Of a DNA stretch of 64,000 nucleotides, positions 15,978-44,485 are shown one piece after another. A program made the translations under genes and the position numbers. Location: the NCBI RefSeq assembly GCF_030013205.1, contig NZ_CP122648.1. The stretch is one strand, 5' to 3'. The notes beneath the pieces were generated by a model that saw nothing but the letters and a program-made list of their open reading frames with translations, searched no databases and was not told where the DNA came from. Source of the DNA: Escherichia coli (GTDB lineage: Bacteria > Pseudomonadota > Gammaproteobacteria > Enterobacterales > Enterobacteriaceae). The first letter of the stretch is position 1. The number at the start of each line of letters is the position of its first letter.

Positions 15978-17547
<1,570 letters not shown>

Positions 17548-33264: not shown

Positions 33265-33317
33265 CTGATATATAAAAAGAAAAAGGCTGACGATTTCTCG
33301 TCAGCCTTTGCTATGTC

Positions 33318-33362
33318 TGGTGGCCCCTGCTGGACTTGAACCAGCGACCAAGCGATTATGAG
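33318..33362 (-). repeat. 45-bp direct repeat of the tRNA ileX 3' end (island att core, yqjH-proximal side)
   Basis: TGGTGGCCCCTGCTGGACTTGAACCAGCGACCAAGCGATTATGAG is identical to 44410..44454 (3' part of ileX); diverges from the tRNA thereafter. Confidence 0.85.
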
Positions 33363-33471
33363 TTGGTTGATAACCCTTTACTTACAGATAATTAGCGATA
33401 CTTTTCAATACCTTAGTATTTTTTAAAACTACTGTATAAATACCTGTATATACCCCAAAATACTTCTTTAC

Positions 33472-33520
33472 GGTATCCTATAGGTATCCTGGAGCAGAAC
33501 AAGCGATTTTCCAGGATACC
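33472..33520. promoter_or_regulatory. Putative integrase arm-type binding sites (GGTATCC repeats)
   Basis: GGTATCCTATAGGTATCCTGG plus inverted CCAGGATACC just upstream of int; near-identical GGTATCCTATAAGTATCCTGG recurs at 44347..44367 at the other island end. Confidence 0.5.
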
Positions 33521-33543: not shown

Positions 33544-34971
33544 GTGAAATTATTCAGATTCTCTAAAGTAAAAATTGCAGAACTGCCAACGCCGGAACAT
33601 GGACAGGTCGAATATGGTGATACGGAGGTTAACGGGCTGCGTGTCCGTGTAGGTTCGTCTGGTGTGAAAAGTTTCTGCATTTCCCGTAAGCGTAACGGAA
33701 AATTTATTCGTGCAACGCTGGGGCGTTTTCCTGATCTGAGCGTGGATAATGCCAGGGCTAAAGCTATGGAACTCCTTGGCGAAGTCGCCACAACGGGGAT
33801 AAATCCGAACATAGCAAAGCGCACTAACAACAAGGCCATGATAACGCTGAGTAAGGCGATTGACGCCTACGTAAAAAATCGTGGCCACCGCCTGAAACCC
33901 GCCACAGAAAAACAGTACCGCAGCATATTACAGAATTATTCCGGTGACTGGATGGCCCATACCCTCGCCAGTATTTCCCGCGAACGGGTGGAACAACGGC
34001 ATAAGGCCATCACTGATGGGGCTGTATGGTTCGGTGCTGATAAAACCACGTTACGGGCTGGGGTTGGTACAGGAAGCAAGGCACAGGCCGATTTATGGGC
34101 GCGTGCGCTACGTGCTGTGTGTCGGTTTGCGCATGATCATTACCGTGATGATGCGGGTAATACTCTTTTACCGGATCCGCCGACTCTGGTACTGAGCACC
34201 AAGCGCCAGTGGCACGGAACGGTAAGAAAAACGGAACGTATCCGCCTGCATGATTTTCCCCGCTGGTTTGCTGCTGTAGCTGCTGTGCGCGACCAGGGCG
34301 AACAGGAAAGGGATGATATAGCGGTGACGGTATGCGATGCCGTGGAAATGGCGCTTTTTACCGGACTGAGGAAATCAGAAATTTTTGGCCTTACGTGGGA
34401 TCGCGTGAATATGGGCGGTCGTTTTTTCTGGATAGACACCACGAAAAACGGGGATCCGCTCGAATTACCGATTACTGATACGTTGCGGGAAATGTTCCAC
34501 CGCCGACTGAAAATAAAAAACGCTGATGATGTTCTGGTGTTTCCTGGTGTGAAGGGAGTGATTCAGGAAACACGGCACATCATAGACCGGATAAGCGCGG
34601 CTACTGTTCCAGAGTCGAACGATGAAATGCTCTCCCCTGTACCATTCAAATGGCACGATGCACGCCGGACGTTCGGAACGGTTGCCGAACTGGTGGGCGT
34701 GGGCAATTACATCCTCAAGCGCCTGATGAATCACCGTACTATGCGAAGTGCTGACGTAACGCAGGGGTATTTACATTTTGGTGCTGATGAACTGCTGGAG
34801 CCAGCGTCACGGATAGAACGGGCAATTCTGGAACATGCCGGGCTGGTGGAGAGTAAAAAATCTATCGATGCGCAATTGCTTTCCGCACTGGAGAGTATGA
34901 GTGACAGTGAGAAACGCGCATTACTATTTAGTATCGTTAATTCAAATGGTGGTTTGAATGTCAGAAAATAA
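33544..34971 (+). CDS. Tyrosine recombinase / P4-type integrase
   Basis: 475-aa ORF (GTG start at 33544); N-terminal arm-binding-like segment (GLRVRVGSSGVKSFCISRKRNGKFIRATLGRFPDLSVDNARAKAMELL) and C-terminal catalytic region with H-x-x-R and Tyr (WHDARRTFGT...TQGYLHF). Confidence 0.85.
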   Translation: MKLFRFSKVKIAELPTPEHGQVEYGDTEVNGLRVRVGSSGVKSFCISRKRNGKFIRATLGRFPDLSVDNARAKAMELLGEVATTGINPNIAKRTNNKAMITLSKAIDAYVKNRGHRLKPATEKQYRSILQNYSGDWMAHTLASISRERVEQRHKAITDGAVWFGADKTTLRAGVGTGSKAQADLWARALRAVCRFAHDHYRDDAGNTLLPDPPTLVLSTKRQWHGTVRKTERIRLHDFPRWFAAVAAVRDQGEQERDDIAVTVCDAVEMALFTGLRKSEIFGLTWDRVNMGGRFFWIDTTKNGDPLELPITDTLREMFHRRLKIKNADDVLVFPGVKGVIQETRHIIDRISAATVPESNDEMLSPVPFKWHDARRTFGTVAELVGVGNYILKRLMNHRTMRSADVTQGYLHFGADELLEPASRIERAILEHAGLVESKKSIDAQLLSALESMSDSEKRALLFSIVNSNGGLNVRK

Positions 34972-35644
34972 AATCATTGCTGCAATAGAATTTGACCATA
35001 ATGATGCGAAGGATATGAATACTATTGCAGATTATATTAGAGATGAACTGGCGTCTTCTTTTGTAAAAAAAACGATATGCGATATGGCAAATATCACACC
35101 ATCTAAAATGTCTCTGGAGGAGAGATTATCATTATCGTCAGAGATAGAAAATAAGGATTTAAAGGTTAATATTTCTGTATGTGCCGGATATGGAGATGAT
35201 TTTGATAAAAAATTTAATAGTGCATATTCAGAATTCAATGATATTTTGAAAGCTGCCATTATATTTGAAGTTCTTGGTTTCAACAGACTTGCAGATCAGT
35301 TACGTGAAAGATATGCGATTTTAGTGTCGGAGAATTTATTAAAATCAGTACGTGATATAGCTAATGTAAAGAAAATTATCAGTAAAGACCGTAGTAAAGC
35401 AAAGAAAGGAAAAACAAACAGGCATAAATCAACAGCGTTATCTATAGCTTGTAACACTTGGAAAAAATACCCTAATGCCAGTTTACCCGGGCTATCCGCA
35501 GAGATATACGCGCACTTACGCAATAAATGGAATGATGTCCCTGTAGTTGGGACTATAGAGAGATGGCTTAAGGAGTCGGGGATGAATCCAAAATCCCCGC
35601 AAAAAAACAGGGATTTTAAGTTAGTTATTGGAGACAAAGAATAA
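34958..35644 (+). CDS. Hypothetical protein, AT-rich cargo gene (no family recognised)
   Basis: 228-aa ORF MSENKIIAAIEFDHNDAKDMNTIADYIRDE...; start overlaps int stop; markedly AT-rich by eye compared with the rest of the island; Lys-rich central segment. Confidence 0.55.
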   Translation: MSENKIIAAIEFDHNDAKDMNTIADYIRDELASSFVKKTICDMANITPSKMSLEERLSLSSEIENKDLKVNISVCAGYGDDFDKKFNSAYSEFNDILKAAIIFEVLGFNRLADQLRERYAILVSENLLKSVRDIANVKKIISKDRSKAKKGKTNRHKSTALSIACNTWKKYPNASLPGLSAEIYAHLRNKWNDVPVVGTIERWLKESGMNPKSPQKNRDFKLVIGDKE

Positions 35645-35776: not shown

Positions 35777-35974
35777 GTGATACTCATGCATTTAGAAAAG
35801 ATGACCCGCAAAGAAGCTGCCGAGCATTTGGGGGTAAGTGTCCAGACTCTTGCTAACTGGGCGTGTACTGGCAAGGTAAAAATCCCTTTTCATAAGCTGG
35901 GGCGCAAAGTGCTGTATATGCGCACTGATCTCGATGCTTATCTTGCATCCACTCGCAGAACGCAGACGGTGTAA
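35777..35974 (+). CDS. Excisionase/AlpA-type helix-turn-helix DNA-binding protein
   Basis: MTRKEAAEHLGVSVQTLANWACTGKVKIPFHKLGRKVLYMRTDLDAYLAS fits the excisionase-family HTH pattern; three candidate starts (GTG 35777, ATG 35786, ATG 35801). Confidence 0.7.
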   Translation: MILMHLEKMTRKEAAEHLGVSVQTLANWACTGKVKIPFHKLGRKVLYMRTDLDAYLASTRRTQTV

Positions 35975-36115: not shown

Positions 36116-36298
36116 TCAGCCTTTGGGTTCTATGCCTTCTTTGCGTAGCTTATCACGACAAGCATTTTTTACCCATGAGCTGAAATTACCAGGCCCTGCA
36201 ACTTCGTTAATTTGTTGCAACAATGTGTCTTCGAAGCGGATGTTTTTCTTTGTGCTGCCGGAGCGATCAAATTTTGGTTTCACATTTTCTTCTTGCAT
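36116..36298 (-). CDS. Putative ribbon-helix-helix (Arc/CopG-like) small regulator
   Basis: 60-aa ORF; segment KKNIRFEDTLLQQINEVAGPGNFSSWVKNACRDKLRKE fits a beta-strand/helix/Gly-turn/helix RHH pattern; start abuts palindrome TGGTACGTACCA; weak RBS. Confidence 0.4.
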   Translation of the reverse strand: MQEENVKPKFDRSGSTKKNIRFEDTLLQQINEVAGPGNFSSWVKNACRDKLRKEGIEPKG

Positions 36299-36343: not shown

Positions 36344-36443
36344 CATTAAAAATACGCAACCATTAAATACAGCGAAGCCCGGCAGTGCGGGAACACTAAC
36401 CGGGCTTCTAACCACCAACGATAGAAAGCGTATCGAGGTAGCT

Positions 36444-36647
36444 ATGAGAAATCATACCACACACCCGCAAGGGCGGGACTCGCACGACCTGAATAAATAC
36501 ATCTGGCGTTTTATCGCCCTGAGCACCGCACAACCGCGCGTGATTCACATCGTGGCCACCAGCGAACAGGAAGCACGCCAGCAATCCCCGGCTGGCTGCG
36601 TGATGGTATTCGCCGCCCGTATTCGTCAGGGGGTGTGCCATGCCTGA
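36444..36647 (+). CDS. Hypothetical small protein (68 aa)
   Basis: ATG at 36444 preceded by GAGGT RBS; MRNHTTHPQGRDSHDLNKYIWRFIALSTAQPRVIHIVATSEQEARQQSPAGCVMVFAARIRQGVCHA; stop overlaps next start. Confidence 0.5.
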   Translation: MRNHTTHPQGRDSHDLNKYIWRFIALSTAQPRVIHIVATSEQEARQQSPAGCVMVFAARIRQGVCHA

Positions 36648-36966: not shown

Positions 36967-37266
36967 ATGAGAACATATTTATCTGGCTTGACTGCCAGCG
37001 GTTATGCACACCCCAAAATTATCCCCGGCGCTATTTATCTGGATAAGAACGGTAACAGAGTAACGGTAAAAGAACTGATGTTTGACCGTGTGTATTTTAT
37101 TCGTGATGGCTATTCATTTCATAGTTCGCTGAACGTGGAGATCTTTATTAGCAGATTCAGGCGGGAAATCCCGCTTTCCAGAAATAACCATGTGTCATGT
37201 ATGGATGTTGATAAAAAACTACAGGAACTGAAAAACATGATTGCCGCGTGGAGAGAGCAGAAATGA
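36967..37266 (+). CDS. Hypothetical protein (99 aa)
   Basis: ORF immediately after previous gene; stop overlaps primase start. Confidence 0.5.
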   Translation: MRTYLSGLTASGYAHPKIIPGAIYLDKNGNRVTVKELMFDRVYFIRDGYSFHSSLNVEIFISRFRREIPLSRNNHVSCMDVDKKLQELKNMIAAWREQK

Positions 37267-39080
37267 AAAAAGCGCCAAATTTAAAACACCAGCCGCGTGA
37301 CAAAATGACGGAAGTCATCATTTTTGCGGGTAGTGATGCGTGGGCACATGCGAAACAGTGGCAGGAACAGGACGGGCGACTGGCTGGCGATAACGTGCCA
37401 CCTGTCTGGCTTGGAGAGCAACAACTTGCCGAACTGGACAACCTGCAAATCGTACCGGACGGACGCTATCGCGTGCGTCTCTATCAGGCGGGGTTATTGC
37501 GTCCGGGGCTTGTTAATACCATCGGGCAGAAACTGGCAGTGGCAGGTGTCAGGGATGCTGATTATTACCCTGAAGGAATGCACAGCCAGAAACGGGAGAA
37601 CTGGCGCGAATATCTGGAACGTGAACGGGCAGAGCAGGCGGAAAAGAAAAAGGTAGTTGAACTGCCTGTAAAGAAAAAAGAGCGGGTAAAAGACGATAAC
37701 GCTTCATCACTGGCGCTTAACCAGATGGGAGCAAGTCAACGCGGCGAAGTTCTCCTGGCACATTATGGCGGTGAACTGGCGATTCATGCTGACTCTGACA
37801 CTGTTCACCATTACAACGGCGTTGTATGGGAGCCAGTACAGGATAAAGAATTACAGCGAGCTATGGCACAGATTTTCATTGATGCGGAGATCAGCTATTC
37901 GCAGAACGCCATTAAATCGGCGGTCGATACCATGAAGTTAAGTTTGCCTGTAATGGGGAATACAGCCCGTAACCTGATTGGATTCAGTAACGGGGTATTT
38001 GATACCAGAACAGGTAATTTTCGGGAGCATAACAAAAACGACTGGTTGTTAATTGCCAGTGAATTACCTTTCAGCCCACCAGCAGAGGGGGAAACGCTGG
38101 CAACACATGCGCCGAATTTCTGGAAGTGGTTACGCCGTTCGGTGGCTGAGAATGACCGCAAGGCGGATCGCGTACTGGCTGCATTATTCATGGTGCTGGC
38201 GAACCGGTACGACTGGCAGTTATTCATTGAGGTAACAGGTCCAGGGGGAAGTGGTAAAAGCGTGATGGCGGAGATTTGCACCATGCTGGCGGGTAAGGCC
38301 AACACAGTATCGGCAAGCATGAAGGCGCTGGAAGATGCAAGGGAACGCGCGTTAGTGGTTGGCTTTTCGCTGATTATCATGCCGGATATGACCCGCTACG
38401 CTGGTGATGGGGCAGGAATTAAGGCCATTACAGGCGGTGACAAGGTGGCAATTGACCCGAAACACAAAGCCCCCTACTCAACGCGTATTCCGGCAGTAGT
38501 GCTGGCGGTTAACAATAACGCCATGTCATTCAGTGACCGCAGCGGGGGGATCTCACGTCGTCGGGTGATATTCAATTTTTCGGAAGTTGTACCGGAGAAC
38601 GAACGCGATCCAATGCTGGCGGAAAAAATAGAAGGTGAGCTGGCGGTAGTGATTCGCCATCTGCTTACACGGTTTGCTGACCAGGACGAAGCCAGACGCC
38701 TGTTATATGAGCAGCAGAAATCTGAAGAAGCACTGGCGATAAAGCGAGAGGGGGATTCGCTGGTGGACTTCTGCGGCTATCTCATGGCGTCGGTAATGTG
38801 TGATGGCCTGTTAGTGGGTAATGCTGAAATTGTGCCATTCAGCCCACGCAGGTATCTCTATCATGCCTATCTGGCTTATATGAGGGCACATGGGTTTGGT
38901 AAACCTGTAACACTGACGCGCTTCGGTAAAGATATGCCGGGGGCAATGGCGGAATATGGCAGGGAGTATATGAAACGGAAAACGAAGCACGGTTTGCGTT
39001 CAAACGTGACACTGACGGAGGAATCAGAAGACTGGATGCCATCATGTGTATCGGTCACTAATGACGATAGCAAAAATTAA
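37263..39080 (+). CDS. Primase/helicase-type replication protein (P4 alpha-like; D5-type NTPase)
   Basis: ORF 37248..39080; likely ATG at 37263 (MKKAPNLKHQ...); Walker A GPGGSGKS with downstream hydrophobic-D Walker B-like LIIMPD; immediately followed by TGTTCACC iteron array. Confidence 0.8.
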   Translation: MKKAPNLKHQPRDKMTEVIIFAGSDAWAHAKQWQEQDGRLAGDNVPPVWLGEQQLAELDNLQIVPDGRYRVRLYQAGLLRPGLVNTIGQKLAVAGVRDADYYPEGMHSQKRENWREYLERERAEQAEKKKVVELPVKKKERVKDDNASSLALNQMGASQRGEVLLAHYGGELAIHADSDTVHHYNGVVWEPVQDKELQRAMAQIFIDAEISYSQNAIKSAVDTMKLSLPVMGNTARNLIGFSNGVFDTRTGNFREHNKNDWLLIASELPFSPPAEGETLATHAPNFWKWLRRSVAENDRKADRVLAALFMVLANRYDWQLFIEVTGPGGSGKSVMAEICTMLAGKANTVSASMKALEDARERALVVGFSLIIMPDMTRYAGDGAGIKAITGGDKVAIDPKHKAPYSTRIPAVVLAVNNNAMSFSDRSGGISRRRVIFNFSEVVPENERDPMLAEKIEGELAVVIRHLLTRFADQDEARRLLYEQQKSEEALAIKREGDSLVDFCGYLMASVMCDGLLVGNAEIVPFSPRRYLYHAYLAYMRAHGFGKPVTLTRFGKDMPGAMAEYGREYMKRKTKHGLRSNVTLTEESEDWMPSCVSVTNDDSKN

Positions 39081-39093
39081 ACTTATGGAATAA

Positions 39094-39316
39094 CTGTTCA
39101 CCACTGTTCACCCTGTCATAAATATCTTTTGTATCAGTATGTTATAGGGTGAGCAGTTATTTATGAACTGTTCACCAAACTATTCACTGTTCACCTTTTT
39201 GATTGTTTATTGAGCTTCAAGGGTGAACAGTGGTGAACAGTTGGTGAATAGTTTTTGTGAAACTGTTCACCCCTTAACATTATGAATTAAAAGATAAAAT
39301 ATCAAAAGGTGAACAG
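39094..39316. repeat. Iteron array, 9-mer CTGTTCACC in both orientations (candidate satellite replication origin)
   Basis: Forward CTGTTCACC at 39094, 39104, 39168, 39187, 39263; reverse GGTGAACAG at 39222, 39232, 39308; one-mismatch variants at 39148 and 39243; TGTTCACC is the iteron bound by P4 alpha protein at ori/crr. Confidence 0.7.
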
Positions 39317-40046: not shown

Positions 40047-40072
40047 AAGCCGGAGCAATCCGGCTTTTTTCT
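40047..40072 (+). terminator. Rho-independent terminator after SSB-like gene
   Basis: GCCGGAGCAATCCGGC hairpin followed by TTTTTT. Confidence 0.6.
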
Positions 40073-40144
40073 GGGTCCTCCCGGTGTAGTGACCTGCCAC
40101 GGGGCGGGAGCGTCGCGGAAAAAGGCTGGTTTTTGCATTTTCAT
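40073..40144. repeat. 72-bp conserved element, copy A (paired with 42607..42678)
   Basis: GGGTCCTCCCGGTGTAGTGACCTGCCACGGGGCGGGAGCGTCGCGGAAAAAGGCTGGTTTTTGCATTTTCAT; about 67/72 identical to copy B by manual alignment; contains dyad CTCCCGGTG...CCACGGGGCGGGAG. Confidence 0.7.
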
Positions 40145-40355: not shown

Positions 40356-40455
40356 GTCTGAATCTGATTAATCTATTTTTATGATAGAAATATGTTTATC
40401 TACCACTTTTATCGATCAATAATGCGCGCAGTTTAGTCAGTAAGAGGAAGTTACT

Positions 40456-40665
40456 GTGAATTGTATTAACGACCTGAACACAGGCGAGGTAAAAGGTGGT
40501 TCCGTTCATCTGGATGCGCAGACCGTTATGCGCCTTAAGCAGTACAGGATCGACCACATAAATCATCATCCTGACCAACCATTACCAGGTGCGGCGCAGA
40601 TTGTCAGACACGCGGTTAACGCGTGGCTTGATAAGAATGGTTTTGCATCTGGGGGGGAGCAATGA
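40456..40665 (+). CDS. Hypothetical small protein (69 aa), translationally coupled to protease-capsid gene
   Basis: GTG start preceded by AAGAGGAAG RBS; stop overlaps start of the 637-aa ORF. Confidence 0.45.
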   Translation: MNCINDLNTGEVKGGSVHLDAQTVMRLKQYRIDHINHHPDQPLPGAAQIVRHAVNAWLDKNGFASGGEQ

Positions 40666-42575
40666 ATCACTGGTACACCATTAAGGCGCTGGGTGTTCGC
40701 GGAGCGGCAGAAATATCCATCTATGAAGAAATTGGCGGCTTCGGTATTACCGCGAAGCAGTTTGCGGAAGACCTGAAAGCCCTGGGCGATGTCTCACATA
40801 TCGACCTGCGGATCCATTCGCCAGGTGGTGACGTGTTTGAAGGCATCGCCATCTATAACCTGTTACGGAATCATCCGGCAGAAATTACGGTTTATATCGA
40901 TGGTGTTGCGGCTTCAATGGCTTCGGTTGTCGCAATGGCTGGCGATCGTGTTGTGATGCCGGAAAACGCCATGATGATGATACATAAGCCGTGGGGTATC
41001 TCTGGCGGAAATGCTGGTGATATGCGTGATTATGCTGATTTGCTGGATAAGGTGGAAACCGTGTTAGTCCCTGCTTATGCCAGAAAAACGGGCAAATCAG
41101 CACAGGAAATTACCGCCATGCTGGAAGATGAAACCTGGATGGACGGGAAAGAATGCCTTAAGCACGGTTTTGCTGATGAATTGTTGCCATCTGTCACAGC
41201 AATGGCGCGAATTGAATCGAAACGCACAGGAGATTTTTCACACATGCCTGAAACCATTAAAGGAATGATTACCCCGCCACAGGGAGCAGCCAATATTGCT
41301 GGTAATGAACAGAAGCGCATCAACGGAATAAGTGAAGTGTTTAGCCTGTTCGGCAGTCGTTACGACGGGATCAAAATGGCGTGCCTGGAGGATGCATCAT
41401 GTACACCGGAGATGGCCCGTGAAAAGTTGTTGAACGAGCTGGGGCGCGAGTCCACGCCATCCAATAAAAATATCCCGACTCATATTTATGCCGGTAACGG
41501 GAACATAACAGGCGATGCAATTCGTCAGGGGCTTTATTCTCGTCTTGGGTATGAACGCCCAGAGCGGGGAAATCCTTACGCGATGATGAGCCTTTTTGAA
41601 ATGGCCCAGGCATCACTAACTGATCGTGGTATCAGTGTTGGCAGTTTTTTAAATCGCTCGCAGGTCGTTAATGCAGCTTTCACACACAGCAGCAGCGATT
41701 TTTCTCATATTCTGGCTGGTGGTGCTGAAAAATCAGTGCTGAAAGGCTGGCAGGACAGCGGCGAAACGTTCCAGAAATGGACGCGTACCGGATCGCTTTC
41801 AAACTTTCATGAAGCAAAGCGCGTTGGTCTGAATGGTTTTTCAAAGCTGGATAAAGTACCGGAAGGTGCGGAATATAAATACATCACCACCAGCGATAAA
41901 GGTGTACCTATTGCGCTGGCCACATACGGTAATATTTTTTCTGTTACCCGTCAGGCCATTATCAACGATGACCTGACCCAGTTAACTACAATCCCCATGG
42001 CGATGGGGCGTGCGGCCGCCAGAACAGTAGGTAATCTGGTTTATCTTCTGTTAACCAGCAACGGCAAATTTACGGATGGTAAAGCGTTATTCCATGCCGA
42101 TCATAAAAATCTTATTGCGAAGGATATGGACATGGTGGGGCTTGATGAAGCCCGTAAGCTGATGCGCCTCCAGGAGGATGCTAACGGCGACTCACTGAAT
42201 ATTACCCCTGCTTTTGTTCTGGTCCCTGCCGCGCTGGAATCTGCCGCGCGTCGCGCCATTCTGTCATCGTCATCAGTCTTTCCGGTTGGTGATGAGAGCA
42301 CTATCAATCAGAACCCCGGCATCATTAACGTGGTGAAAGATATGGCAGAAGTAATTGTTGAGCCACGTCTTGATAAGGCCAATAGCAAGGAATGGTATGT
42401 AGCCGCAGCTAAGGGGATGGACACAATAGAAGTCGCTTATCTTGATGGTATGGATACGCCATATCTTGAGGAGCAGGTGGGCTTTACTGTTGATGGTGTC
42501 GCCTGGAAAGTGCGCATAGATGCAGGTGTCGCGGCCCTCGATTATCGCGGATTACTGAAATCGAGTGGAGCATGA
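40662..42575 (+). CDS. Prohead protease (ClpP/S49-like) fused to a capsid-like C-terminal domain
   Basis: 637-aa ORF; N-terminal IHSPGGDVFEGIAIYN and GVAASMASVVAMAGD resemble the ClpP/S49 serine-protease motifs (cf. lambda gpC DTPGG); C-terminal ~350 aa has no recognised enzyme motif and is interpreted as major capsid by context and composition. Confidence 0.7.
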   Translation: MNHWYTIKALGVRGAAEISIYEEIGGFGITAKQFAEDLKALGDVSHIDLRIHSPGGDVFEGIAIYNLLRNHPAEITVYIDGVAASMASVVAMAGDRVVMPENAMMMIHKPWGISGGNAGDMRDYADLLDKVETVLVPAYARKTGKSAQEITAMLEDETWMDGKECLKHGFADELLPSVTAMARIESKRTGDFSHMPETIKGMITPPQGAANIAGNEQKRINGISEVFSLFGSRYDGIKMACLEDASCTPEMAREKLLNELGRESTPSNKNIPTHIYAGNGNITGDAIRQGLYSRLGYERPERGNPYAMMSLFEMAQASLTDRGISVGSFLNRSQVVNAAFTHSSSDFSHILAGGAEKSVLKGWQDSGETFQKWTRTGSLSNFHEAKRVGLNGFSKLDKVPEGAEYKYITTSDKGVPIALATYGNIFSVTRQAIINDDLTQLTTIPMAMGRAAARTVGNLVYLLLTSNGKFTDGKALFHADHKNLIAKDMDMVGLDEARKLMRLQEDANGDSLNITPAFVLVPAALESAARRAILSSSSVFPVGDESTINQNPGIINVVKDMAEVIVEPRLDKANSKEWYVAAAKGMDTIEVAYLDGMDTPYLEEQVGFTVDGVAWKVRIDAGVAALDYRGLLKSSGA

Positions 42576-42581
42576 CAACAA

Positions 42582-42605
42582 GGGCGGCGACAGCCGCCTT
42601 TTTTA
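42582..42605 (+). terminator. Rho-independent terminator after protease-capsid gene
   Basis: GGCGGCGACAGCCGCC hairpin followed by TTTTTT. Confidence 0.6.
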
Positions 42606-42606
42606 C

Positions 42607-42678
42607 GGGTCCTCCCGGTGGAGTGGTCTGCCACGGGGCGGGAGCGGCGCGGAAAAAGGCTAGTTTTTGCATTTTCAT
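42607..42678. repeat. 72-bp conserved element, copy B
   Basis: GGGTCCTCCCGGTGGAGTGGTCTGCCACGGGGCGGGAGCGGCGCGGAAAAAGGCTAGTTTTTGCATTTTCAT; same terminator-then-element arrangement as copy A. Confidence 0.7.
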
Positions 42679-42831
42679 TCGTCGTCATCATCTTTATATG
42701 ATATTGAATTTTAAGTATTTTTATTTTTGGTATGTTAATTTTGCTTGTTTTATGCTCAACATATAGCGCATTTTTTGACCTCTTCTGAAAGTTGTTCGCA
42801 GGATGCATGTTTAAAACATTCTGGAGCGGGT

Positions 42832-43317
42832 ATGGATCGAGAACTGAAAAATCTGATGCTGAACATTAATCAACTGGCGGCGATAGCGGGAATATGTCGT
42901 CAGACTGCGGCGGCAAGGCTGAAAAACATCCAGCCAGCCGGAGGGCATGACAAGCTGAAACTCTATCGGGTGACTGACATTCTGACCTGTTTTCTTGATC
43001 TTCCCGTTCCGGCATCACTGGAAGAAATGGAGCCACATGACCGTAAGGCCTGGTATCAGTCCGAACGTGAACGCCTCAAGTTCGAACAGGAAACGGCGCA
43101 ACTCATACCCGCCGATGATGTGCGAAAAGAGATGGCTATATGGGGGGAAATCGTAAGCGAGGAACTGGCAAAACTCCCCAATATTCTGGCACGTGATGCC
43201 GGGCTTAAACCGATGGCAGTAAACAGAGTGCAGTCAATTATTGACGATTTGTGTAATCAGATTATCAGCCGGATGGTAAAAAATGACGTAGTGAATGAGG
43301 TCGCAAAACAGGCATGA
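42832..43317 (+). CDS. Terminase small subunit, lambda Nu1-like
   Basis: ORF 42745..43317; likely ATG at 42832 with GGAG RBS; MDRELKNLMLNINQLAAIAGICRQTAAARLKNIQPAGGHDKLKLYRVTDILTCF parallels the Nu1 N-terminal wHTH region (KKQLADIFGASIRTIQNWQEQGMPV...EVLYDSAAVIKWY); comparison from memory. Confidence 0.65.
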   Translation: MDRELKNLMLNINQLAAIAGICRQTAAARLKNIQPAGGHDKLKLYRVTDILTCFLDLPVPASLEEMEPHDRKAWYQSERERLKFEQETAQLIPADDVRKEMAIWGEIVSEELAKLPNILARDAGLKPMAVNRVQSIIDDLCNQIISRMVKNDVVNEVAKQA

Positions 43318-43601
43318 TAATGACCGAATCTGAAATACTGCGATTAATCCGCTGTGCTGGTGGAATCAGCCAGTTGGCTGACGAACAGGCCGCGCAGCCG
43401 GATACAGTCACCGCTGAAAATTACGCGCGTGTGGTGGCTGAGGTGATGCGCCGTGACGGTATTGAGCTTAACGGCGTGGATATGCGCAACATACGAACCA
43501 GAGTTCTTGAGTTGCTGGCATACCGTCGCCGTTCTCAACAACGGAGGGAGAGCGCGAAAAATACTTACCAGTGGAGGAAGCCGGAGCACTTACGGCGGTA
43601 A
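43314..43601 (+). CDS. Hypothetical protein (95 aa)
   Basis: ORF overlapping terS stop by 4 nt; basic C-terminus. Confidence 0.45.
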   Translation: MIMTESEILRLIRCAGGISQLADEQAAQPDTVTAENYARVVAEVMRRDGIELNGVDMRNIRTRVLELLAYRRRSQQRRESAKNTYQWRKPEHLRR

Positions 43602-43618
43602 CTGGTTGATATTATCGA

Positions 43619-43870
43619 AAGTGCAAAAATGCACTTAGCAACTGGTGGCGAGTTGCAGATCTGCAACTCGACTATGAAACTACGGAAACTACCCGTAGTT
43701 TGGGTAGTAAGAGTAACACCCAGATTTTGGGGCTTACTCGCGATACCCAAATAAATGGTATCGGTGGAAGAAATATCGTTTCTCATATGTGAGTACCGAG
43801 GGCGGAATTCCGCCTTCGGTTACTTATTGTGCTCATGCACAGGGAGAGGCGGGTACAAATCTCTGTACCC
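43619..43870. other. Hairpin/palindrome-dense non-coding region at the attR-proximal end of the island
   Basis: At least eight distinct dyads in ~250 bp: AAGTGCAAAAATGCACTT, GAGTTGCAGATCTGCAACTC, AAACTACGG-N7-CCGTAGTTT, TGGGTAGTAAGAGTAACACCCA, CGATACC-N9-GGTATCG, GGCGGAATTCCGCC, TGTGCTCATGCACA, GGGTACA-N6-TGTACCC; no convincing ORF. Confidence 0.6.
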
Positions 43871-44051
43871 TGACGTCTTCCGGACTGCCAGCCCCATCGT
43901 TTTTTTACGCCCGCGAAAAATAAAAATTGTTTGTATGTGAGTATTGTAGCCAGCAAAAGCTCTTTCTTTGGTGGCTTATTGTTTCTAATAGATTTTGGGA
44001 GGTAGAAATGGGAGGCCCAGCGAAAGCTGGGCCGAGCTTGTTACGCTGTCA

Positions 44052-44195
44052 TTACTTCAGCATGATAACTAAAGCTATACATACTAGCACTACGGCTATT
44101 GGGCATAGACCTAAATTGCCAAGTGCTGCGATTAAACCTGTAACGGCAATCACACGTGCAGACAGCAGGTCTGAGCCCTTTCTTAAAGTATCCAT
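44052..44195 (-). CDS. Small hydrophobic peptide (47 aa), candidate membrane peptide of type-I-toxin-like size
   Basis: ATG preceded by GGAGG RBS (ACGGAGGTATCA-ATG); translation MDTLRKGSDLLSARVIAVTGLIAALGNLGLCPIAVVLVCIALVIMLK has polar N-terminus and one predicted TM helix; below the 60-aa track cutoff. Confidence 0.3.
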   Translation of the reverse strand: MDTLRKGSDLLSARVIAVTGLIAALGNLGLCPIAVVLVCIALVIMLK

Positions 44196-44346
44196 TGATA
44201 CCTCCGTCAGGGTTTTTGCCGGTCTCTTGGAGAGTTGGGGGCAAAAGTTCAGACCCGTAGCACTTTCTTGTTCGCAGGTGAACGGCTGCTACGACCCAAC
44301 TGTTCTGTAGGCATGAGCCAATTCTTACTTGTTAATACTTCTCAGA

Positions 44347-44367
44347 GGTATCCTATAAGTATCCTGG
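44347..44367. promoter_or_regulatory. Putative integrase arm-type site, tRNA-proximal side
   Basis: GGTATCCTATAAGTATCCTGG, near-identical to 33472..33492. Confidence 0.45.
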
Positions 44368-44409
44368 TAAAGCAAGATAGTTTGGATACATCTGTAATTC
44401 ATTGAAATC

Positions 44410-44485
44410 TGGTGGCCCCTGCTGGACTTGAACCAGCGACCAAGCGATTATGAGTCGCCTGCTCTAACCACTGAGCTAAGGGGCC
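44410..44485 (-). tRNA. ileX: tRNA-Ile (anticodon CAU, lysidine-modified isoleucine tRNA)
   Basis: Reverse complement reads GGCCCCTTAGCTCAGTGGTTAGAGCAGGCGACTCATAATCGCTTGGTCGCTGGTTCAAGTCCAGCAGGGGCCACCA: 76 nt, CAT anticodon in loop, encoded CCA end; canonical position next to mug. Confidence 0.9.

What the first reader, a model, noticed from the sequence alone, without database searches (positions are those of the whole stretch)
40662..43317. Packaging module limited to a protease-capsid fusion and a Nu1-like small terminase
A single 637-aa ORF joins an S49/ClpP-like prohead protease N-terminus (HSPGGDVF...GVAASMAS) to a ~350-aa capsid-like C-terminal region. It is followed by a Nu1-like TerS with its own RBS. 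A satellite carrying its own capsid subunit and TerS but no portal or TerL would have to build or re-size capsids with helper portal and terminase while redirecting cos recognition to itself. The capsid call rests on context and composition, not on a motif I can see.
Basis: inference. Interest (0 to 1): 0.65.

Follow-up and report, generated by a model that had tools for sequence, protein, structure and literature searches.

The report
Phage satellite carrying own capsid gene
The reported genes sit in an 11-kb phage-parasitising island (a PICI-type satellite) at a tRNA gene of E. coli, which carries its own protease-capsid fusion protein, its own small terminase and two lambda-like cos sites but no portal or large terminase; this is a head-module variant of a known kind of element.

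Summary
ORF 40662-42575 is a ClpP-type prohead protease fused through a helical linker to an HK97-fold major capsid protein (Pfam, NCBIfam NF045540, AlphaFold plus Foldseek). ORF 42832-43317 is a DUF1441 small terminase with a predicted Nu1-type winged helix. Sequence methods do not place it in the Nu1 family.

Both lie in an 11,092-bp island bounded by 48-nt repeats at tRNA ileX. The island has an integrase, an excisionase-like HTH, a P4-type primase with iterons, and SSB. It has no portal, TerL, tail or lysis genes.

- two lambda-like cosQ-cosN sites, one placed 200 bp upstream of terS as in lambda;
- a conserved small ORF coupled to the fusion;
- the helper type, which is mEp460/Gifsy-2-type lambdoid prophages.

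The satellite fusion belongs to a satellite-only clade across Enterobacterales: 72-96% identical among satellites, 54-61% to phage copies, dN/dS about 0.04-0.17, with a shared linker deletion. The TerS is mosaic, with an exchangeable DNA-binding half and a satellite-specific C-terminal half.

Gram-negative PICIs with capsid and terS genes are already described, so this is a variant of a known kind. The function of the capsid gene is untested.

The parts
33316..33363 (.). attL: 48-nt perfect direct repeat of the 3' part of tRNA ileX
   Evidence: family D2; start-to-start spacing 11,092 bp
33544..34971 (+). tyrosine integrase
   Evidence: PHROG 1 integrase, E 2.8e-38; RefSeq annotation
34958..35644 (+). 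228-aa accessory gene with no family match, in a low-GC stretch
   Evidence: no hit in PHROGs, NCBIfam or PADLOC; related satellites carry DUF6387 or AbiC-like genes in this slot
35786..35974 (+). 62-aa excisionase/MerR-type HTH in the position of AlpA
   Evidence: Pfam HTH_17, E 1.3e-12; PHROG 66 'excisionase and transcriptional regulator', E 2.5e-10; not similar to the PF05930 AlpA of sister islands
36116..36298 (-). YlcI/YnfO-family small protein, divergently transcribed
   Evidence: RefSeq annotation; PHROG 949
36444..36647 (+). Icd-like protein (P4-type host cell division inhibitor family)
   Evidence: NCBIfam NF033153, 71 bits against a cutoff of 25
37263..39080 (+). P4/D5-type primase-helicase (replication protein)
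   Evidence: PHROG 864, E 1.5e-192; TIGR01613 domain, E 3.5e-27 but 95.1 bits, below its 108.7-bit cutoff; RefSeq start
39083..39271 (.). iterons (CTGTTCACC repeats) just downstream of the primase: predicted replication origin
   Evidence: families D3, D7, D11; placement as described for PICI origins in PMC6092414
39610..40032 (+). single-stranded DNA-binding protein
   Evidence: TIGR00621, 59 bits against a cutoff of 54
40051..40144 (+). cos1: hairpin plus T-run, then cosQ (GGGTCCT) and cosN; predicted 12-nt cohesive end GGGCGGGAGCGT at 40102-40113
   Evidence: 87% identical repeat of cos2 (family D1); aligns with the lambda end junction; its downstream region is unrelated to that of cos2 (59%)
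40456..40665 (+). 69-aa small ORF whose stop overlaps the fusion start (ATGA); conserved upstream of the capsid gene in related satellites
   Evidence: PHROG 4934, E 4.8e-30; alignment with satellites from other genera; present directly upstream of the fusion in 73 of 79 IMG/VR loci; no Pfam match
40662..42575 (+). ClpP-type prohead protease (about residues 1-180), helical scaffold-like linker (about 181-330) and HK97-fold major capsid protein (about 331-637), in one polypeptide
   Evidence: satellite-only clade and shared linker deletion; dN/dS 0.04-0.17
42585..42678 (+). cos2: hairpin plus T-run, cosQ and cosN; predicted cohesive end GGGCGGGAGCGG at 42636-42647
   Evidence: 76-81% identical to the region upstream of terS in mEp460-type phages
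42648..42831 (+). cosB-like AT-rich region between cosN and terS, with the same spacing as lambda cosN to nu1
   Evidence: 96.7% identical to the equivalent region of prophage L004 and 76.3% to mEp460; lambda nu1 starts at position 191
42832..43317 (+). DUF1441 small terminase: N-terminal winged HTH (about 9-56), invariant middle helix, and a satellite-specific C-terminal half (105-161)
43314..43601 (+). 93/95-aa conserved backbone protein of unknown function, downstream of terS
   Evidence: PHROG 1561, E 3.3e-51; 76% identical to the protein that follows the Nu1-type terS of EcCIIHE3034
44408..44485 (-). attR (44408-44455) within tRNA-Ile2 ileX (anticodon CAU; 44410-44485)

Best explanation
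The region is the morphogenesis and packaging module of an 11,092-bp PICI-type phage satellite integrated at tRNA ileX. Its helpers are lambdoid phages of the mEp460/cdtI/Gifsy-2 head type, whose head genes run DUF1441 TerS, GpA-type TerL, W-like protein, portal, ClpP::MCP fusion, cement.

Shown here:
- the element's ends, integrase, replication module and two lambda-like cos sites;
- the fusion is a ClpP-type protease plus helical linker plus HK97-fold capsid protein, from a satellite-only lineage under strong purifying selection;
- the TerS has a predicted winged-helix N-terminus and sits 200 bp downstream of cosN;
- near-identical satellites lie embedded inside the TerL or capsid-fusion genes of exactly this prophage type.

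Inferred mechanism: after helper induction the island excises and replicates from its own origin into concatemers. The satellite TerS binds the cosB-like region next to cos2 and recruits the helper's TerL, which nicks cosN (predicted 12-nt end GGGCGGGAGCGG). The DNA is then packaged cos-to-cos into procapsids nucleated on the helper portal and joined to helper connectors and tails.

The satellite's all-in-one shell protein (protease, scaffold-like linker, capsid) supplies or contributes the shell. It may assemble alone on the helper portal, or mix with the helper capsid protein as Ccm does in SaPIbov5. Its shortened linker may favour a smaller shell. Alternatively, four genome copies fill a helper-sized head.
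For: Element and ends: 48-nt att repeats, integrase, HTH, primase, iterons and SSB. Fusion identity and fold. TerS; in phages the same family sits directly upstream of TerL. cos sites: alignment with the lambda ends, and identical cosN in mEp460 and the L004 prophage. Helper type: the fusion is 57% and TerS 65-71% identical to mEp460-type phage proteins. In IMG/VR loci L025, L032, L035 and L037 a satellite with primase 99-100%, TerS 98-99% where the locus reaches it, and fusion about 96-97% identical to this island (primase replaced by another replication gene in L037) lies inside a TerL gene 99-100% identical to that of prophage L004. In at least 12 further loci the satellite lies inside the helper's own fusion gene. 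Functional constraint: satellite fusions are 72-96% identical across E. coli, Klebsiella, Pectobacterium and Serratia but 54-61% identical to phage copies, including 56% to the satellite's own helper in L015; dN/dS is 0.04-0.17. None of 79 related loci has a portal directly upstream of the fusion; 73 have the small ORF directly upstream and 73 have a replication gene within 4.5 kb upstream. The DNA-binding half plus cosB also works in a real phage context: prophage TerS P0014 has an identical N-terminal half and is followed by TerL and portal. Precedents from the literature: SaPI TerS and Rpp redirect helper terminase (PMC6739421), and the capsid homologue Ccm reshapes helper capsids (PMC8569155).
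Against: There is no experimental evidence for this island family. In the lambda-type PICI EcCICFT073, deleting the capsid homologue did not relieve interference (PMC6092414). [quoted passage not shown] The TerS recognition helix is identical to that of helper TerS proteins, so a change in specificity is not evident. Only 24 of 79 related satellites carry the satellite-type TerS, so it is not essential to the lineage. 4 x 11,092 bp = 44.4 kb, against 44.5 kb for mEp460, so small capsids are not needed. No terminal repeats or cos-ended contigs were found in IMG/VR. A resident helper prophage in ETEC4079 was not located.
Confidence: 0.6

Rival explanations
1. The fusion is mainly an interference or decoy factor rather than a builder of satellite capsids. 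Its capsid or protease domain would co-assemble with helper proheads or process them prematurely and so lower helper yield. The satellite itself would be packaged as a tetramer in ordinary helper capsids.
For: Four island copies match the helper genome length. EcCICFT073-type PICIs are packaged in phage-sized capsids, and their capsid gene is dispensable for the phenotypes tested (PMC6092414, PMC6739421). The satellite clade is only 54-61% identical to helper capsid proteins, a distance at which mixed assembly could be poisonous.
Against: Satellites embedded in the helper's own fusion gene carry this gene as the only intact copy until they excise. That fits a working capsid protein better than a poison. 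All three regions, including the catalytic motifs, are under strong purifying selection.
Confidence: 0.2
2. The fusion is a spare part. It would be a legacy of helper-embedded relatives that integrate into the helper's fusion or TerL gene and carry a replacement copy. In the chromosomal ileX island it would be retained without a role of its own.
For: At least 14 of the 79 related loci are embedded in a helper late gene. The preprint 10.1101/2022.07.18.500453 proposes exactly this 'backup copy' idea and notes embedded satellites inside the CLP_protease gene of a PICI at a tRNA-Met gene.
Against: Most relatives (63 of 79 loci, and the ileX, clpS and other chromosomal islands) are not embedded, yet they keep the gene intact with dN/dS 0.04-0.17. 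The satellite copy is far from the helper copy it would replace (56% in L015). Satellites embedded in TerL carry no spare TerL.
Confidence: 0.12
3. The locus is a decayed prophage remnant, or alternatively a fully capsid-autonomous cf-PICI, rather than a partly dependent satellite.
For: It contains phage head-gene homologues next to an integrase at a tRNA gene.
Against: Against a remnant: perfect 48-nt att repeats, all genes intact, its own primase and origin, and the small ORF plus fusion present in 183 of 5426 complete E. coli genomes and at several att sites. Against cf-PICI: no portal, TerL, HNH or head-tail connector gene is present, and these define cf-PICIs (10.1101/2022.09.08.507074).
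Confidence: 0.03

Closest known systems
Gram-negative PICIs of E. coli (EcCICFT073, EcCIIHE3034; Fillol-Salom et al. 2018, 2019)
   Same: Same backbone and gene order as EcCIIHE3034: int, HTH regulator, YlcI/YnfO, Icd-like, DUF4222, primase, SSB, cos1, small ORF, capsid gene(s), cos2, terS, 93-aa protein. The 93/95-aa proteins are 76% identical. Both have two cos sites, as reported for EcCICFT073 (PMC6739421). Size is about 11 kb.
   Different: The head module comes from another phage lineage. Here it is a ClpP::MCP fusion plus DUF1441 TerS, in place of lambda E-like capsid, D-like decoration protein, a 137-aa protein and Nu1-type TerS. No sequence-detectable Rpp homologue was found for the TerS-like protein. 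The att site (ileX) is not among the 29 reference PICIs.
SaPIbov5 Ccm (capsid-protein homologue of a cos-type SaPI)
   Same: A satellite-encoded HK97-fold homologue of the helper capsid protein in a cos-packaged island. It is the precedent for a satellite capsid protein that reshapes helper capsids (PMC8569155).
   Different: Ccm is not fused to a protease and occupies only the pentamers. SaPIbov5 has no TerS of its own. Whether the protein described here changes capsid size is unknown.
cf-PICIs (EcCIEDL933; Alqurainy et al.)
   Same: A satellite that encodes its own capsid protein, protease and TerS.
   Different: cf-PICIs also encode portal, head-tail connectors, HNH and TerL, and steal only tails (10.1101/2022.09.08.507074). 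This island lacks all of those.
Helper-embedded satellites (HES; preprint 10.1101/2022.07.18.500453)
   Same: Close relatives of this island, with nearly the same cargo, are embedded in the TerL or ClpP::MCP genes of their helpers. The preprint records embedded satellites at CLP_protease:110 and a PICI at a tRNA-Met gene that carries such a gene.
   Different: This copy sits in a chromosomal tRNA gene and has a different integrase.
Lambda gpNu1/cos, and pac-SaPI TerS
   Same: cosQ-cosN homologous to lambda. terS starts 200 bp after cosN, as nu1 does (position 191). The model predicts a Nu1-like winged HTH. The logic of a satellite TerS recruiting helper TerL is that of SaPI TerS (PMC6739421, discussion).
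   Different: The Pfam family is DUF1441, not Phage_Nu1. The predicted cohesive end differs (GGGCGGGAGCGG against GGGCGGCGACCT). The C-terminal half is specific to the satellite lineage.

Membership tests
Gram-negative PICI | Integrase at one end and a specific att site with flanking direct repeats | tested here: met
   int at 33544-34971; 48-nt perfect repeats at 33316 and 44408 in tRNA ileX
Gram-negative PICI | AlpA- or MerR-type regulator/excisionase downstream of int | tested here: inconclusive
   A 62-aa HTH_17/MerR-like protein is in the right place, but it is not PF05930 AlpA and is unlike the AlpA of sister islands
Gram-negative PICI | Own primase/replication initiator with an origin immediately downstream | tested here: met
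   P4/D5-type primase at 37263-39080 and iterons at 39083-39271
Gram-negative PICI | Size of about 7.5-15 kb with no lysis or tail genes | tested here: met
   11,092 bp; all ORFs accounted for
Gram-negative PICI | Induction by a helper phage and high-frequency helper-dependent transfer | not testable with these tools
   Only indirect evidence: near-identical satellites embedded in mEp460-type prophages
cf-PICI | Encodes portal, head-tail connectors, HNH and TerL in addition to capsid, protease and TerS | tested here: not met
   None of these genes lies between the att sites
P4-like satellite | sid/psu/delta capsid-size and transactivation genes | tested here: not met
   No island ORF searched against PHROGs or NCBIfam matched a family annotated with those functions; only an Icd-like protein and a P4-family primase are shared
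ClpP-like prohead protease/MCP fusion (NCBIfam NF045540) | Full-length match above the curated cutoff, with a ClpP domain and a capsid domain in one chain | tested here: met
   904 bits against a cutoff of 475; Pfam CLP_protease plus Phage_capsid_4
HK97-fold major capsid protein | HK97 fold of the C-terminal domain | tested here: met
   Model pLDDT 90.1; 334 Foldseek PDB hits with E<=1e-3, and the 50 listed are all capsids or encapsulins
Lambda Nu1 small terminase (Pfam Phage_Nu1) | Sequence membership | tested here: not met
   Pfam assigns DUF1441 only; hhalign against a true Nu1 homologue gave probability 1.8%
Lambda Nu1 small terminase (Pfam Phage_Nu1) | N-terminal MerR-like winged helix-turn-helix | tested here: met
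Lambda Nu1 small terminase (Pfam Phage_Nu1) | Gene directly upstream of a GpA-type TerL and downstream of cos in phages | tested here: met
   True of phage members of DUF1441. In the island cos is present but TerL is absent.
Rpp (redirecting phage packaging) | Sequence similarity to RppA/B/C | tested here: not met
   No Rpp chain appears among PDB sequence hits for the TerS-like protein at E<=1
Helper-embedded satellite | Integrated within a late gene of its helper prophage | tested here: not met
   This copy is in tRNA ileX between nfeF and mug; relatives are embedded

The most novel reading that the evidence does not exclude
The satellite-only ClpP::scaffold::MCP clade may mark a 'half-way' class between classical PICIs and cf-PICIs. 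Such satellites would build their own, possibly smaller, shell from a single self-processing polypeptide on a stolen helper portal. Some, like this island, would add a TerS whose satellite-specific C-terminal half captures the helper TerL. The shared 24-29-residue linker deletion would set the capsid size.
Probability: 0.3. Interest if true: 0.7.

Novelty: new variant of a known kind. Interest (0 to 1): 0.42.

Why it matters
Most Gram-negative PICIs carry a capsid-protein gene whose role is unknown. The one knock-out reported, in EcCICFT073, showed no phenotype.

This island family is a cleaner test case for three reasons. Its capsid gene is a self-contained protease-scaffold-capsid unit. That unit belongs to a conserved satellite-only lineage spread across Enterobacterales. 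And in embedded relatives it is the only intact capsid gene until the satellite excises.

The family is common: the satellite small ORF plus fusion is present in 183 of 5426 complete E. coli genomes, and the helper-type terminase in 1868 of 5426. The mosaic TerS, with an exchangeable DNA-binding half and cosB but a fixed satellite-type C-terminal half, suggests how satellites keep pace with their helpers' packaging specificity. All of this can be tested directly with mEp460-type phages.

Tried and rejected
- Rpp homology of the TerS-like protein: no PDB sequence hit.
- Nu1 membership by sequence: rejected.
- A known RNA family for the repeated 94-nt element: Rfam found nothing relevant. The repeat turned out to be cosQ-cosN.
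- mEp460 record ends as real cos ends: rejected. The record simply starts at the ATG of an extended terS ORF; the cosN homologue lies about 160 bp before the record end.
- A defence-system role for the small ORFs: PADLOC gave nothing convincing.
- Pfam on the 69-aa ORF: no match.
- Promoter and terminator scan: counts were not above the shuffled expectation.
- Locating a helper prophage in ETEC4079: the cos2-terS query has two places in that genome, but the second could not be retrieved from ranked listings.
- Evidence of packaged satellite DNA in IMG/VR: no terminal repeats and no contigs ending at cos.
- Literature on PICIs with a ClpP::MCP fusion: none found in the searchable library, apart from the helper-embedded-satellite preprint.
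- 'Recent capture from the current helper' as the origin of the fusion: rejected because of the deep satellite-only clade.
Full report
**What is at the coordinates**

The window is 100% identical to the chromosome of E. coli ETEC4079. ORF 40662-42575 (+) encodes 637 aa.
- Pfam finds CLP_protease at residues 38-175 (E 1.6e-34) and Phage_capsid_4 at 335-634 (E 4.4e-54).
- NCBIfam places the whole protein in NF045540, 'ClpP-like prohead protease/major capsid protein fusion protein': 904 bits against a cutoff of 475.
- PHROGs gives head maturation protease / major head and protease protein.
- GVAASMAS and MMIHKPWG align with the catalytic Ser and His motifs of solved ClpP chains. The S49/SppA similarity is marginal.
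- I modelled residues 200-637 with an 80-sequence alignment: pLDDT 90.1, pTM 0.77. Foldseek against the PDB returned 334 hits at E<=1e-3. The 50 listed are HK97-fold capsid proteins or encapsulins, for example SaPI1/80alpha, PhiTE and D3.
- Fusion residues about 208-262 form three helices ahead of a low-confidence stretch. This fits a scaffold- or delta-like segment.

**The TerS-like gene**

From the ATG at 42832 the gene encodes 161 aa and has a GGAG 5 nt upstream.
- It is Pfam DUF1441 (E 1.6e-35) and PHROG 141 'terminase small subunit'.
- In phages and prophages this family lies directly upstream of a GpA-type TerL.
- The AlphaFold model (pLDDT 79.9) predicts strand, helix-turn-helix, beta-wing and helix over residues 9-56, followed by long helices.
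- The best Foldseek matches are MerR-type winged HTH domains and lambda TerS 6hn7_B, but with E>=0.09.
- At sequence level it is not Nu1: hhalign against the genuine Nu1 homologue of EcCIIHE3034 gives probability 1.8%.

'Nu1-like' is therefore right for predicted fold and for gene position, and wrong for family membership.

**The surrounding element**

A perfect 48-nt direct repeat (33316-33363 and 44408-44455) duplicates the 3' part of tRNA ileX. It bounds an 11,092-bp island between nfeF and mug-rpoD. The genes, all on the + strand unless noted, are:
- integrase;
- a 228-aa orphan gene;
- a 62-aa HTH_17 excisionase-like protein;
- a divergent YlcI/YnfO gene (minus strand);
- an Icd-like protein;
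- a 106-aa protein;
- DUF4222;
- a P4/D5-type primase, followed by CTGTTCACC iterons;
- an 81-aa protein;
- SSB;
- a 69-aa ORF;
- the fusion;
- TerS;
- a 93/95-aa protein

. There is no portal, TerL, connector, tail or lysis gene. This is the architecture of Gram-negative PICIs (PMC6092414).

The reference PICI EcCIIHE3034 has the same backbone. In the same slot it carries a lambda-type module: a 68-aa ORF, an E-like capsid protein, a D-like decoration protein, a 137-aa protein and a Nu1-type TerS. Its 93-aa protein is 76% identical to the one here.

A 94-nt element occurs twice, at 40051-40144 and 42585-42678, with 87% identity. Each copy is a hairpin with a T-run followed by a sequence that aligns with the lambda end junction:
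- island: ACGGGTCCTCCCGGTG...CACG|GGGCGGGAGCGG|CGCGG
- lambda: ACGGGTCCTTTCCGGTG...TACG|GGGCGGCGACCT|CGCGG

These are cosQ-cosN homologues. The cut positions are inferred from this alignment only. cos2 lies 200 bp upstream of terS, as lambda cosN lies 190 bp upstream of nu1. mEp460 and related prophages have the same cosN upstream of their DUF1441 terS.

Two cos sites are also a published feature of EcCICFT073 (PMC6739421). In EcCIIHE3034 the first site is of the mEp460 type and the second of the lambda type.

**Helper type**

TerS is 65-71% identical, and the fusion 57% identical, to the proteins of mEp460-type lambdoid phages. Their head operon runs terS (DUF1441), terL, W-like gene, portal, a 652-675-aa ClpP::MCP fusion and cement.

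In IMG/VR, 79 loci carry fusions 62-98% identical to this one.
- None has a portal directly upstream. 73 have the small ORF directly upstream, and 73 have a replication gene within 4.5 kb upstream.
- In several loci (L025, L032, L035, L037 and others) a satellite with almost the same cargo as this island lies inside a TerL gene that is 99-100% identical to that of prophage L004. Primase is 99-100% identical (another replication gene replaces it in L037), TerS 98-99% where the locus reaches it, and SSB and the 93-aa protein 94-100% where present.
- At least 12 more lie inside the helper's own fusion gene. This matches the helper-embedded satellites of preprint 10.1101/2022.07.18.500453, which also mentions a PICI at a 'tRNA-Met' gene carrying a CLP_protease gene.

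That is strong indirect evidence for the helper family. Helper-type terS-terL occurs in 1868 of 5426 complete E. coli genomes. The satellite small ORF plus fusion occurs in 183.

**The fusion is a satellite lineage, not a recent capture**

- Satellite fusions from E. coli, Klebsiella, Pectobacterium and Serratia are 72-96% identical to each other.
- They are only 54-61% identical to phage fusions, including 56% to the helper in which the Pectobacterium satellite is embedded.
- All share a 24-29-residue deletion just after the protease domain.
- In a library clustered at 50% identity, the only representative above 62% identity is a satellite-length 638-aa protein at 92%; the full-length phage-type representatives start at about 58%.
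- dN/dS between satellite copies is 0.04-0.17. The capsid domain is the most constrained part.

The 69-aa ORF overlapping the fusion start is conserved with the fusion, and weakly with the ORF that precedes the lambda-type capsid gene of EcCIIHE3034. RefSeq instead annotates an ORF on the opposite strand there.

**The TerS is mosaic**

- Satellite TerS proteins share a C-terminal half (residues 105-161, non-acidic tail) that is 95-100% identical among satellites.
- That half is 47% identical to phage TerS proteins, which all end in an acidic tail.
- The N-terminal DNA-binding halves vary: 52-70% between satellites, but 100% identity to the TerS of prophage P0014/L004.
- The cosB-like region is 96.7% identical to that prophage and 76.3% to mEp460.
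- That prophage type is rare: 2 of 5426 genomes match over the full cos-terS query.
- In the embedded pair L035, helper and satellite differ in both halves of TerS, while the predicted recognition helix RQTAAARL is the same.

A change in cos specificity is therefore neither shown nor excluded. My inference is that the cosB plus DNA-binding cassette is exchanged between satellites and phages, while the C-terminal half is lineage-specific. By analogy with gpNu1 (established knowledge), the C-terminal half would be the TerL-contacting or oligomerising part.

**Mechanism and its limits**

Shown: the parts list, the predicted folds, the cos homology, the helper family and the selective constraint.

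Inferred: excision and replication; TerS binding at cosB and recruitment of helper TerL; cutting at cosN; and use of the helper's portal, connectors and tails.

The role of the fusion is open. The options are its own or mixed shells (possibly smaller, as with Ccm; PMC8569155), interference, or a spare part.

Points against a required small capsid:
- 4 x 11,092 bp = 44.4 kb, against 44.5 kb for mEp460.
- EcCICFT073 is packaged in full-size heads, and deletion of its capsid gene had no reported phenotype (PMC6092414).

Only 24 of 79 relatives carry the satellite TerS. The conserved core is therefore the small ORF plus the fusion, and the TerS is an add-on of the E. coli group.

**Novelty**

PICIs with capsid and terS homologues have been described since 2018, and capsid genes are present in 21 of 29 reference Gram-negative PICIs (10.1101/2022.07.18.500453). 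This island is not in that reference list, and I found no paper characterising a PICI with a ClpP::MCP fusion. It is a head-module variant of a known kind.

The features I could not find described elsewhere are comparative: the satellite-only fusion clade with its linker deletion, and the mosaic TerS.

Noticed in passing
window 40051-40144 and 42585-42678: There are two lambda-like cosQ-cosN sites 2,534 bp apart that bracket the small ORF and the fusion. Their predicted cohesive ends differ at the last base (…GCGT against …GCGG), and their downstream regions are unrelated (59% identity). Which site starts or ends packaging is unknown.
   Followed up: partly
L012 (EcCIIHE3034) 6728 and 9170: This published lambda-type PICI has one cos of the mEp460 type (GGGCGGGAGGCG) after ssb and one of the lambda type (GGGCGGCGACCT) before its Nu1-type terS. 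That raises the possibility that a single satellite can be packaged by two helper families.
   Followed up: no
window 40456-40665 (+) versus RefSeq CDS at window 40396-40569 (-): RefSeq annotates a minus-strand hypothetical ORF. The plus-strand 69-aa ORF is the conserved one (PHROG 4934, E 5e-30) and is translationally coupled to the fusion. Its function is unknown. A beta-strand followed by helices suggests a ribbon-helix-helix protein, but Pfam finds nothing.
   Followed up: partly
window 34958-35644: A 228-aa orphan gene lies in a low-GC stretch directly after int. Related satellites carry DUF6387, AbiC-like or GmrSD genes in or near this slot, so it may be a hotspot for accessory or defence genes.
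   Followed up: no
L013/L014, L066, L071, L072 (Klebsiella-type satellites): Instead of a terS, these satellites carry a tape-measure-protein homologue of up to about 810 aa downstream of the fusion. That is an unusual cargo for a satellite of about 11 kb.
   Followed up: no
L004-L007, and two complete genomes (CFSAN064035, 22AR0322): A rare prophage TerS (P0014) combines the satellite-type DNA-binding half and cosB (97-100% identity) with the phage-type acidic C-terminal half. It looks like a recombinant between satellite and helper.
   Followed up: partly
L008 (E. coli GCA_031665325.1): Two copies of a sister island sit in tandem at one att site next to the allantoin genes.
   Followed up: no
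window 36371-36443 (-): There is a weak Rfam match to the SymR antitoxin RNA (34.8 bits against a gathering score of 61, E 0.0015) between the YlcI/YnfO gene and the Icd-like gene. It is probably chance, but it sits in the divergent regulatory region.
   Followed up: no
window 43601-44408: About 800 bp between the last conserved gene and attR have no convincing gene. The stretch contains a strong hairpin at 43795-43820 and a 34-nt repeat (44334-44367) that also occurs near attL (33459-33492), possibly integrase arm sites.
   Followed up: no
window 15978-17519 (-): A 513-aa hypothetical protein with no gene name lies between fadH and ygjK in the core-genome part of the window.
   Followed up: no
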